DNA of 64,000 nt from Escherichia coli (GTDB taxonomy: Bacteria; Pseudomonadota; Gammaproteobacteria; Enterobacterales; Enterobacteriaceae), in the NCBI RefSeq assembly GCF_030384885.1, contig NZ_CP128613.1, one strand, 5' to 3'. How positions within the stretch are numbered: position 1 is the stretch's first letter; each line of letters starts with the position of its first letter. The position numbers were made by a program. Below are positions 48,401 to 51,400 of the stretch, in pieces.

Positions 48401-51400
48401 AGCGTTCAATTAAATGCGGGGAGTCTGCCACATCGACCTGAACCCAGACCGATGCTGGCATTGGCGGACGCGGACGCGCCGTCGTGCGCTTCATCACGAT
48501 TAAAAGATCCAGTTCGGCACCTTTCAACGGTAACGTTGATTCAATCAGAGTGATGGCATTCCATGAACCGGAAAGCAGCATGATAAACGTGAACTCTTCT
48601 CCCAGCATTGCCAGGCGACTGTCTTCGATATTACAGCCGCAACTACTGACATGACGGGTGATGGTGTTCACAATTCCAGGGCGATCGGCACCCAACGCAG
48701 TGATCACCAGATAATGTTGCGATGACAGTGTCAAACTGGTTATTCCTTTAAGGGGTGAGTTGTTCTTAAGGAAAGCATAAAAAAAACATGCATACAACAA
48801 TCAGAACGGTTCTGTCTGCTTGCTTTTAATGCCTTACCAAACGTACCATTGAGACACTTGTTTGCACAGAGGATGGCCCATGTTCACGGGAAGTATTGTC
48901 GCGATTGTTACTCCGATGGATGAAAAAGGTAATGTCTGTCGGGCTAGCTTGAAAAAACTGATTGATTATCATGTCGCCAGCGGTACTTCGGCGATCGTTT
49001 CTGTTGGCACCACTGGCGAGTCCGCTACCTTAAATCATGACGAACATGCTGAAGTGGTGATGATGACGCTGGAGCTGGCTGACGGGCGCATTCCGGTGAT
49101 TGCCGGGACCGGCGCTAACGCTACTGCGGAAGCCATTAGCCTGACGCAGCGCTTCAATGACAGTGGTATCGTCGGCTGTCTGACGGTAACCCCTTACTAT
49201 AATCGTCCGTCGCAAGAAGGTTTGTATCAGCATTTCAAAGCCATCGCTGAACATACTGACCTGCCGCAAATTCTGTATAATGTGCCGTCCCGTACTGGTT
49301 GCGATCTGCTCCCGGAAACGGTGGGCCGTCTGGCGAAAGTAAAAAATATTATCGGAATCAAAGAGGCTACAGGGAACTTAACGCGTGTAAACCAGATCAA
49401 AGAGCTGGTTTCAGATGATTTTGTTCTGCTGAGCGGCGATGATGCGAGCGCGCTGGACTTCATGCAATTAGGCGGTCATGGGGTTATTTCCGTTACGGCT
49501 AACGTCGCAGCGCGTGATATGGCCCAGATGTGCAAACTGGCGGCAGAAGGGCATTTTGCCGAGGCACGCGTTATTAATCAGCGTCTGATGCCATTACACA
49601 ACAAACTATTTGTCGAACCCAATCCAATCCCGGTGAAATGGGCATGTAAGGAATTGGGTCTTGTGGCGACCGATACGCTGCGCCTGCCAATGACTCCAAT
49701 CACCGACAGTGGTCGTGAGACGGTCAGAGCGGCGCTTAAGCATGCCGGTTTGCTGTAAAGTTTAGGGAGATTTGATGGCTTACTCTGTTCAAAAGTCGCG
49801 CCTGGCAAAGGTTGCGGGTGTTTCGCTTGTTTTATTACTCGCAGCCTGTAGTTCTGACTCACGCTATAAGCGTCAGGTCAGTGGTGATGAAGCCTACCTG
49901 GAAGCAGCACCGCTTGCGGAGCTTCATGCCCCGGCTGGAATGATTTTGCCGGTGACCTCCGGTGATTATGCAATCCCGGTGACCAACGGTAGTGGTGCTG
50001 TCGGTAAGGCGCTGGATATTCGTCCACCAGCCCAGCCGCTGGCACTGGTTTCTGGCGCGCGTACCCAGTTCACGGGCGATACCGCTTCATTGCTGGTGGA
50101 AAATGGTCGTGGCAATACTCTGTGGCCGCAGGTGGTTAGCGTGCTGCAGGCGAAAAACTACACCATCACCCAACGTGATGATGCGGGTCAGACGCTGACC
50201 ACCGATTGGGTACAATGGAACCGTCTGGACGAAGACGAGCAGTATCGTGGTCGTTATCAAATCTCTGTTAAGCCGCAGGGTTATCAGCAGGCGGTTACGG
50301 TTAAACTGCTGAACCTGGAACAGGCGGGCAAACCGGTTGCAGACGCGGCTTCCATGCAGCGTTACAGCACGGAGATGATGAACGTTATTTCCGCCGGTCT
50401 GGATAAATCTGCCACTGACGCCGCGAACGCTGCGCAAAATCGTGCCTCCACCACTATGGACGTACAAAGTGCAGCTGATGACACCGGTTTACCGATGCTG
50501 GTCGTACGCGGGCCGTTCAATGTGGTTTGGCAACGTCTGCCAGCGGCGCTGGAAAAAGTGGGCATGAAAGTGACCGACAGCACCCGTTCGCAGGGCAACA
50601 TGGCCGTAACTTACAAGCCGCTGTCTGACAGCGACTGGCAGGAACTGGGCGCGAGCGATCCAGGCCTGGCATCCGGTGACTATAAACTGCAGGTTGGCGA
50701 TTTAGATAACCGCAGCAGCCTACAGTTCATCGATCCGAAAGGTCATACTCTGACTCAGAGTCAGAACGACGCGCTGGTAGCTGTCTTCCAGGCTGCGTTT
50801 AGCAAGTAAAAATACAGGGCTGGAGTCATCCGGCCCTTTTTTCTGATATGATACGCAAACGTGTGCGTCGGCAGAAAAATGCGATTTTAGCGGTAATTCG
50901 CACGAAATTTGTTTGTCGGACGTAGGTCGGATAAGGCGTTCTTGCCGCATCCGACAAAACATCTGGCACATCAGACAGCAAAAGATTTTAAAACGTTAAT
51001 TCACACCCAGGAGTGATAAAGATGCAAAAGCAAGCTGAGTTGTATCGTGGTAAAGCGAAAACCGTATACAGCACGGAAAACCCGGACCTGTTGGTGCTCG
51101 AATTCCGCAATGATACGTCAGCAGGGGATGGCGCGCGCATTGAGCAGTTTGATCGCAAAGGTATGGTGAACAACAAGTTCAACTACTTCATTATGAGCAA
51201 ACTGGCTGAAGCGGGTATCCCGACTCAAATGGAGCGTCTGCTCTCCGATACCGAATGTCTGGTGAAAAAGCTGGATATGGTGCCGGTTGAGTGTGTCGTG
51301 CGTAACCGTGCTGCTGGCTCTCTGGTGAAACGTCTTGGAATCGAAGAAGGTATTGAGCTGAACCCGCCGCTGTTCGATCTGTTCCTGAAAAACGACGCCA

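What the first reader, a model, noticed from the sequence alone, without database searches (positions are those of the whole stretch)
48720..48800. gcvR likely starts at TTG, not at the upstream ATG
The ATG-initiated ORF adds a hydrophobic 22-residue extension (MLYACFFYAFLKNNSPLKGITS) that does not look like part of a soluble ACT-domain regulator. A TTG at 48734-48732 would give the expected 190 aa protein starting (M)TLSSQHYLV.
Basis: inference. Interest (0 to 1): 0.2.

Follow-up and report, generated by a model that had tools for sequence, protein, structure and literature searches.

The report
gcvR starts at its known TTG

Summary
The conclusion is right but not new, and one stated fact is wrong. 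The window carries E. coli bcp<-gcvR | dapA->. The long ORF (48800..48162, minus strand, 212 aa) does not begin with ATG. It begins with TTG directly after a TGA stop, and its 22 extra codons hold no in-frame ATG or GTG. RefSeq already starts gcvR at the TTG at 48734-48732 (190 aa), both in a strain with identical DNA and in K-12.

Evidence for the TTG:
- Seventy-nine Enterobacteriaceae species were scored, plus Dickeya, a Yersiniaceae genome, Edwardsiella and Erwinia. All keep the TTG. The 79 have AGGAA exactly 8 nt upstream; the four keep a similar GGAAG motif.
- Third-position wobble begins exactly at the TTG.
- In 30 of 79 species an in-frame stop lies within the 22 codons, with no other start.
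- The conserved upstream block is read in three different frames in different genera.
- Published mapping places the main gcvR transcription start 27 nt upstream of the TTG (window 48761), inside the "extension".

The extension therefore covers the inferred -35 (TTGTAT) and -10 (TTCCTT), the +1 and the 27-nt leader. This is ordinary and already known. The only practical point is that 211-212 aa forms persist in some Salmonella and Klebsiella database entries.

The parts
48162..48734 (-). gcvR coding sequence, 190 codons plus TAA stop: TTG start, two tandem ACT domains
   Evidence: ORF and translation. RefSeq CDS on identical DNA maps to exactly these coordinates. NCBIfam NF008612 scores 393.9 bits against a cutoff of 267 and Pfam finds ACT_6 plus ACT.
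48732..48734 (-). TTG initiation codon of gcvR
   Evidence: Present in 79 of 79 Enterobacteriaceae loci scored (80 of 80) and invariant in all 75 distinct aligned sequences. Also TTG in Dickeya, a Yersiniaceae genome, Edwardsiella and Erwinia. Codon periodicity begins here.
48743..48747 (-). Shine-Dalgarno AGGAA, 8 nt before the TTG
   Evidence: AGGAA with 8-nt spacing in 79 of 79 loci. All five columns are invariant.
48761..48761 (-). Main gcvR transcription start (A), giving a 27-nt 5' UTR
   Evidence: Kim et al. 2012 Table S1: TSS 2597901, 27 reads, 5' UTR 27 nt, with upstream 51-mer ...TTTCCTTAAGAACA matching the window. K-12 and the window are identical across this stretch.
48768..48773 (-). 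Inferred -10 hexamer TTCCTT (weak), at -12..-7 of the mapped TSS
   Evidence: Inferred from geometry relative to TSS 48761. 48769-48773 are invariant; 48768 varies T/A. Colinear with TACCAT in Dickeya and the Yersiniaceae locus. No mutational test was done here.
48792..48797 (-). Inferred -35 hexamer TTGTAT, 18 bp upstream of the -10
   Evidence: Invariant or nearly so in 75 distinct sequences. Colinear with TTGGCA-18-TACCAT in Dickeya and the Yersiniaceae locus. The consensus scan found no site at 9 of 12 matches or better on this strand, which fits a weak promoter.
48769..48787 (-). Conserved block GTTTTTTTTATGCTTTCCT (promoter spacer plus most of the -10); it produces the 'FFYAFL' of the pseudo-extension
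   Evidence: Zero entropy at 18 of 19 columns, with no third-position wobble. Read as FFYAFL, VFFMLS or FFLCFP in different genera.
48735..48800 (-). Untranslated 'extension': 22 open in-frame codons covering the gcvR promoter, +1 and leader
   Evidence: Entropy by codon position is 0.41/0.49/0.50, against 0.26/0.12/1.06 in CDS codons 2-22.
48801..48803 (-). In-frame TGA that closes the frame just upstream of the first TTG
   Evidence: Sequence read directly.
48833..48833 (-). Minor upstream gcvR TSS (99-nt leader) that would carry the upstream TTGs on the RNA
   Evidence: Kim et al. 2012 Table S1: TSS 2597829, 17 reads, 5' UTR 99 nt. No GGAG/AGGA-type motif lies in the 20 nt before 48800.
48820..48856 (+). 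Divergent dapA promoter: TTGCTT (48820-48825), 18 bp, TACCAT (48844-48849), TSS A at 48856; dapA ATG at 48880
   Evidence: Kim et al. 2012 TSS 2597806, 17 reads, 5' UTR 24 nt. Conserved blocks AAAAGCAAG and AATGGTACGT in the alignment. dapA start taken from RefSeq.

Best explanation
gcvR is translated from the TTG at 48734-48732, served by an AGGAA Shine-Dalgarno 8 nt upstream, on an mRNA whose main 5' end is the A at 48761 (27-nt leader). The product is the 190-aa two-ACT-domain GcvR.

The 66 nt that read as MLYACFFYAFLKNNSPLKGITS are not coding. They hold the inferred gcvR core promoter (-35 TTGTAT 48797-48792, 18-bp spacer with a T8 tract, -10 TTCCTT 48773-48768), the transcription start and the leader. 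The hydrophobic look comes from translating a T-rich promoter.

A weak start codon plus a poor promoter fits the low, constitutive expression reported for gcvR.

Shown here: the ORF anatomy, the existing annotation, the conservation pattern and the published TSS. Inferred: the hexamer assignments, and the idea that TTG is kept in order to hold GcvR low.
For: - Annotation: RefSeq CDS on identical DNA and in K-12 starts at this TTG, 190 aa. The K-12 intergenic region differs from the window at one base, 48834.
- Family profile: NCBIfam NF008612 (equivalog, 189 positions) aligns to long-ORF residues 23-211. Pfam ACT_6 covers 29-104. Residue 4 of PDB 1u8s aligns to residue 28.
- Comparative: TTG and AGGAA at 8-nt spacing in 79 of 79 Enterobacteriaceae species loci. 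Four further Enterobacterales families keep the TTG with a similar motif.
- Coding signature: entropy by codon position is 0.41/0.49/0.50 in the extension and 0.26/0.12/1.06 in CDS codons 2-22.
- The extension is not an ORF in relatives: 30 of 79 loci have an in-frame stop within 22 codons and no alternative ATG/GTG/TTG. Indels of 1-2 nt occur between 48768 and 48750. The invariant block is read in three frames.
- TSS: Kim et al. 2012 (PMC3415461) Table S1 lists a gcvR TSS 27 nt upstream of the TTG, 27 reads.
- PgcvR is described as a 'low-level constitutive promoter' citing Ghrist & Stauffer 1998.
- The short leader has no significant structure, z = 0.03, and the region has no Rfam match.
- From memory only, since the paper is not held: Ghrist & Stauffer 1998, J Bacteriol 180:1803, identified a UUG start and a +1 about 27 bp upstream.
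Against:
- A second, weaker TSS at -99 (17 reads) produces RNA that contains the upstream TTGs.
- The frame is open for at least 22 codons in 49 of 79 species.
- Some NCBI and UniRef entries for Salmonella and Klebsiella carry 211-212 aa forms.
- The inferred -10 (TTCCTT) lacks the usual A at position 2, so the hexamer assignment is uncertain.
Confidence: 0.95

Rival explanations
1. The 212-aa ORF is real. Translation starts at TTG 48800 (or 48797) and gives GcvR a hydrophobic N-terminal tail, either as the main product or as a minor isoform made from the -99 transcript.
For: - The frame is open from 48800 and stays open for at least 22 codons in 49 of 79 species.
- A TSS at window 48833 (17 reads) would include these codons.
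- Forms of 211-212 aa are deposited for Salmonella and K. oxytoca.
Against: - No Shine-Dalgarno-like motif precedes 48800.
- The main TSS (27 reads) lies downstream of these codons.
- There is no codon periodicity and there are non-triplet indels. Thirty of 79 species have in-frame stops. E. albertii and two divergent Escherichia lineages read the block in another frame.
- The first TTG position is itself variable: 48800 is T 29, C 29, A 17.
- The family profile and the solved homologue have no counterpart of the extension.
Confidence: 0.03
2. Translation starts further downstream, at the in-frame GTG (codon 10, 48707-48705) or TTG (codon 14), and gives a shorter protein.
For: Both codons are in frame in the window.
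Against: - The third base of codon 10 is T 43, C 20, G 11 across distinct sequences, so it is a start codon in only a minority of species.
- No Shine-Dalgarno motif precedes it.
- Pfam ACT_6 model position 1 aligns at residue 29 of the long ORF (His7 of the 190-aa form), so a start at codon 10 would remove the beginning of the first ACT domain.
- Residues 7-10 (HYLV) are conserved as protein, with wobble at third positions.
Confidence: 0.01
3. The conserved T-rich block encodes a small upstream ORF: out-of-frame ATG 48793-48791, MHVFFMLSLRTTHPLKE, with its stop TAA at 48742-48740 between the Shine-Dalgarno motif and the TTG. Its translation would regulate gcvR.
For: The 17-codon ORF can be read directly in the window and K-12 sequence and ends 5 nt before the TTG. 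It would be present only on the -99 transcript.
Against: - Its first 11 codons lie upstream of the main TSS.
- It has no Shine-Dalgarno motif.
- Indels change its frame and length between genera, and the block shows uniform rather than codon-like conservation.
Confidence: 0.01

Closest known systems
E. coli K-12 gcvR (b2479; NP_416974.4; 190 aa), the glycine cleavage system repressor / GcvA anti-activator
   Same: Same gene. The intergenic and 5' region is identical except for one base, at 48834. It has the same TTG start, the same dapA | gcvR-bcp arrangement, and a protein identical except Q182P.
   Different: Only the Q182P substitution and the single upstream SNP. This exact 851-bp stretch is 100% identical in only 3 of the E. 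coli records searched.
V. cholerae putative GcvR, PDB 1u8s (192-residue chain)
   Same: Homologous double-ACT protein, E = 1.8e-38. Its N-terminus sits within a few residues of the E. coli TTG start, and it has no hydrophobic N-terminal tail.
   Different: A more distant orthologue. Its start codon and promoter were not examined here.
Genes with a conserved weak (UUG) initiation codon that limits regulator dosage
   Same: The TTG is kept across the order Enterobacterales although one substitution would make ATG, and it is paired with a weak constitutive promoter.
   Different: That TTG limits GcvR dosage was not tested here. It rests on my recollection of Ghrist & Stauffer 1998, which could not be read.

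Membership tests
GcvR (NCBIfam NF008612 / PRK11589 equivalog) | Full-length match to the equivalog profile above its curated cutoff | tested here: met
   393.9 bits against a cutoff of 267. Profile positions 1-189 align to residues 23-211 of the long ORF, so the match begins at the TTG.
GcvR (NCBIfam NF008612 / PRK11589 equivalog) | Two tandem ACT domains and no other domain | tested here: met
   Pfam ACT_6 at 29-104 (E = 2.7e-26) and ACT at 119-188 (E = 1.1e-07). Nothing matches residues 1-22.
GcvR (NCBIfam NF008612 / PRK11589 equivalog) | Conserved neighbourhood: divergent dapA upstream, bcp immediately downstream | tested here: met
   Seen in the window, RefSeq E. coli, and Dickeya, Yersiniaceae, Edwardsiella and Erwinia loci.
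GcvR (NCBIfam NF008612 / PRK11589 equivalog) | Binds glycine and GcvA to repress gcvTHP | not testable with these tools
   Biochemical property. It is known for the K-12 protein from the Stauffer laboratory papers cited in PMC1557403. The window protein differs from K-12 by one residue.
Genuine non-ATG (TTG) translation start | The start codon is conserved at the aligned position in orthologues | tested here: met
   TTG in 79 of 79 loci scored (80 of 80) and in 4 of 4 more distant Enterobacterales loci.
Genuine non-ATG (TTG) translation start | Shine-Dalgarno motif at a functional distance (5-10 nt) | tested here: met
   AGGAA 8 nt upstream in 79 of 79 loci.
Genuine non-ATG (TTG) translation start | The coding signature (third-position variability) begins at the proposed start and not before | tested here: met
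   Entropy is 0.26/0.12/1.06 downstream of the TTG and 0.41/0.49/0.50 upstream.
Genuine non-ATG (TTG) translation start | The mRNA 5' end lies upstream of the start and excludes competing in-frame starts | tested here: met
   The main TSS is 27 nt upstream. No in-frame ATG, GTG or TTG lies between 48761 and 48734. A minor TSS at -99 does include the upstream TTGs.
Genuine non-ATG (TTG) translation start | The N-terminus of the mature protein is determined experimentally | not testable with these tools
   Ghrist & Stauffer 1998 is not held. No start-site profiling tables with gcvR were retrievable.

The most novel reading that the evidence does not exclude
In lineages where the frame happens to stay open (E. 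coli, Salmonella, Citrobacter), the minor -99 transcript might allow rare SD-independent initiation at the upstream TTGs. That would give a trace N-terminally extended, hydrophobic-tailed GcvR isoform. Alternatively, the long leader might be kept translationally silent by pairing of the invariant UUUCCUUAAG with the SD region CUUAAAGGAA, as in the predicted fold.
Probability: 0.03. Interest if true: 0.3.

Novelty: already known. Interest (0 to 1): 0.05.

Why it matters
For E. coli biology it matters little, because the TTG start is already the curated annotation and, as far as I recall, was established experimentally in 1998.

There are two modest practical points. First, forms of 211-212 aa (Salmonella, K. 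oxytoca) and an ATG-in-the-SD form (Yersiniaceae, 195 aa) are still present in public protein databases. The comparative evidence here says these are over-extended calls. Second, the case shows how a conserved T-rich promoter can pass as a conserved hydrophobic N-terminal peptide, and how codon-position entropy, indel phase and TSS data separate the two.

Tried and rejected
- The primary papers (Ghrist & Stauffer 1995 and 1998; PMC177274, PMC107093) are not held. What I say about them is from memory and is marked as such.
- Start-site ribosome profiling gave nothing. The TetRP supplements contain no gcvR entry and cover only sites within 60 nt of annotated starts, so that is uninformative. No Ribo-RET preprint supplements are held. 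The Weaver 2019 and Meydan 2019 papers are not held.
- The Cappable-seq supplements have no gcvR or matching coordinates. The K. pneumoniae TSS sheet was cut off in the stored file, so the orthologous TSS could not be checked.
- Literature searches for gcvR with UUG or 'start codon' found nothing relevant.
- The generic sigma-70 scan found no promoter on the gcvR strand. The promoter was instead placed from the published TSS and from colinearity with Dickeya and the Yersiniaceae locus.
- The promoter predicted in Shimada 2014 (TTAAAA-18-TCTGAT) was rejected as the main promoter. Its -10 region is variable across genera and it matches neither mapped TSS.
- An anti-SD hairpin in the leader was considered. 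The 27-nt leader is unstructured (z = 0.03). The 99-nt leader is predicted to pair UUUCCUUAAG with the SD region, but the fold is not better than shuffles (z = -0.54) and both arms are invariant, so covariation cannot be tested.
- Variation within E. coli is too low to be informative. Of 5,426 records, 4,091 are at least 99% identical over the intergenic region.
- No Rfam family matches the region.

Full report
**What is in the sequence.** On the minus strand the window carries bcp (48162..47692) and gcvR, with dapA diverging on the plus strand from an ATG at 48880. The mechanical ORF covering gcvR runs 48800..48162 and is 212 aa. The long ORF opens with TTG TTG (48800-48795) directly after an in-frame TGA (48803-48801). 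No ATG or GTG is in frame anywhere in the extension; the visible ATG triplets are out of frame. Twenty-two open codons are within chance, since (61/64)^22 is about 0.35.

**Existing annotation.** The 851 bp around the site are 100% identical to three E. coli RefSeq chromosomes and 95-99% identical to nearly all of the 5,425 genomes that match. In the identical strain, RefSeq places gcvR at locus 717..1289, which maps to window 48734..48162 (190 aa, WP_000176186.1). K-12 MG1655 has the same call (b2479, 2599906..2600478, NP_416974.4). The K-12 dapA-gcvR intergenic region differs from the window at one base (48834), and the proteins differ only by Q182P.

**Protein-level evidence.**
- The NCBIfam GcvR equivalog profile (NF008612, 189 positions) aligns to residues 23-211 of the long ORF at 393.9 bits against a cutoff of 267. 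It begins exactly at the TTG.
- Pfam finds ACT_6 at 29-104 and ACT at 119-188, and nothing in residues 1-22.
- Residue 4 of the solved V. cholerae homologue 1u8s aligns with long-ORF residue 28, so that protein also starts a few residues before the first ACT strand.

I therefore examined the DNA. I fetched 80 Enterobacteriaceae species loci and scored 79 of them.
- The aligned start codon is TTG in all 79, and AGGAA lies exactly 8 nt upstream in all 79.
- In 30 of 79 loci an in-frame stop falls within the 22 upstream codons and there is no alternative ATG, GTG or TTG, so the TTG is the only possible start.
- E. albertii and two divergent Escherichia lineages carry 1-2 nt indels in the C-run near 48752-48755, which puts the upstream block in another frame (…CCMHVFFMLSL…).
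- Across genera the same invariant nucleotides are read as FFYAFL, VFFMLS or FFLCFP.
- Mean column entropy by codon position is 0.41/0.49/0.50 in the extension and 0.26/0.12/1.06 in CDS codons 2-22. The third-position signature switches on at the TTG.
- The TTG with a similar GGAAG motif upstream is also present at the same position in Dickeya, a Yersiniaceae genome, Edwardsiella and Erwinia.

The conservation in the extension is at the nucleotide level and is not coding.

**What the extension is.** Table S1 of Kim et al. 2012 (PMC3415461) lists two gcvR transcription starts in K-12.
- One is at 2597901, with 27 reads and a 27-nt 5' UTR. Its 51-mer ends …TTTCCTTAAGAACA, which maps to window 48761.
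- The other is at 2597829, with 17 reads and a 99-nt UTR, which maps to window 48833.

The main +1 is inside the "extension". Relative to it, the invariant TTCCTT (48773-48768) sits at -12..-7, and the invariant TTGTAT (48797-48792) lies 18 bp further up. In Dickeya and the Yersiniaceae locus the colinear positions read TTGGCA-18-TACCAT around the same T8-ATG spacer. This supports the assignment and shows that the enterobacterial version is a degenerate, weak promoter. The generic promoter scan finds nothing on this strand, and a later paper calls PgcvR a "low-level constitutive promoter"; both fit. The 66 nt therefore comprise -35, spacer, -10, +1 and a 27-nt leader carrying the Shine-Dalgarno motif. 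The hexamer assignments are inferences. The TSS is published data.

**Residual alternatives.**
- *Long form.* The -99 transcript would carry the upstream TTGs. However, no Shine-Dalgarno motif precedes them, and the first TTG position is variable across genera (48800: T 29, C 29, A 17).
- *Downstream start.* A start at GTG (codon 10) is excluded because that codon is GTT or GTC in most species and the start would truncate the first ACT domain.
- *Upstream small ORF.* An out-of-frame 17-codon ORF (ATG 48793…TAA 48740) exists in E. coli. It lies mostly upstream of the main +1 and is not frame-conserved.
- *RNA structure.* The short leader is unstructured (z = 0.03). The long leader is predicted to pair UUUCCUUAAG with the SD region, but not significantly (z = -0.54). 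No Rfam family matches the region.

**Literature caveat.** The papers that, to my recollection, settled this could not be read here: Ghrist & Stauffer 1995, J Bacteriol 177:4980, and 1998, J Bacteriol 180:1803. I recall a UUG start, a +1 27 bp upstream, and an increase in expression when UUG is changed to AUG. Only the 27-nt distance is corroborated here. Start-site ribosome-profiling tables with gcvR were not retrievable.

**Verdict.** Interest is very low. Two things are worth keeping: the 211-212 aa GcvR entries for Salmonella and Klebsiella, and the 195-aa Yersiniaceae entry starting at an ATG inside the SD, look like over-extended calls; and the TTG plus weak promoter pair is conserved across Enterobacterales.

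Noticed in passing
window 48820-48880 (+ strand): The dapA promoter can be placed as TTGCTT (48820-48825), 18 bp, TACCAT (48844-48849), +1 A at 48856, with a 24-nt leader to the ATG at 48880. 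It coincides with two invariant blocks in 75 distinct Enterobacteriaceae sequences and with the dapA TSS in Kim et al. 2012 (17 reads). The minor gcvR TSS at 48833 lies between the dapA -35 and -10 hexamers on the opposite strand, so the two promoters overlap back to back.
   Followed up: partly
window 48162-48164 (- strand): The gcvR stop codon TAA overlaps the bcp start codon ATG by one base (TAATG). This suggests co-transcription and possibly translational coupling of bcp to gcvR. Kim et al. 2012 also list a weak bcp TSS inside gcvR (5 reads, 410-nt UTR).
   Followed up: no
proteins P0001, P0002, P0019 (211-212 aa) and P0108 (195 aa; locus L084 601-1188): Public entries for Salmonella enterica and Klebsiella oxytoca GcvR include the promoter-derived extension. 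A Yersiniaceae entry starts at an ATG that overlaps the Shine-Dalgarno motif (ATGACAGGAAG...), 5 codons upstream of the conserved TTG. These look like over-extended start calls.
   Followed up: partly
protein P0038 (331 aa): A 'hypothetical protein' attributed to the fungus Astraeus odoratus is 88% identical to enterobacterial GcvR and also carries Redoxin/AhpC-TSA domains, so it looks like a gcvR-bcp read-through. This is most likely bacterial contamination in a fungal assembly with a mis-called fused gene.
   Followed up: no
locus L087 (E. coli Nord8, NZ_CP139794.1), aligned to window about 48776-48802: In this one genome the gcvR -35 and spacer region is replaced by a run of about 27 T. RefSeq still annotates gcvR from the TTG. 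It is either an assembly or homopolymer artefact or a real promoter mutation.
   Followed up: partly
window 48187-48189 (- strand, codon 182 of gcvR) and 48834: The window's GcvR carries Q182P relative to K-12, in the unconserved C-terminal tail, plus one intergenic SNP (A in the window, T in K-12) at -1 of the minor -99 TSS. Only 3 of the E. coli records searched are 100% identical over the 851-bp stretch, so the window comes from a less common lineage.
   Followed up: no
window 48740-48793 (- strand): There is an out-of-frame 17-codon ORF (ATG 48793, MHVFFMLSLRTTHPLKE, TAA 48742-48740) ending 5 nt before the gcvR TTG. It would be present only on the -99 transcript, has no Shine-Dalgarno motif and is not frame-conserved across genera.
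   Followed up: partly
window 48743-48775 (- strand): On the 99-nt leader the invariant UUUCCUUAAG is predicted to pair with the SD-containing CUUAAAGGAA, which would occlude the ribosome-binding site on the long transcript only. The fold is not better than shuffled controls, and both arms are invariant, so covariation cannot be assessed.
   Followed up: partly
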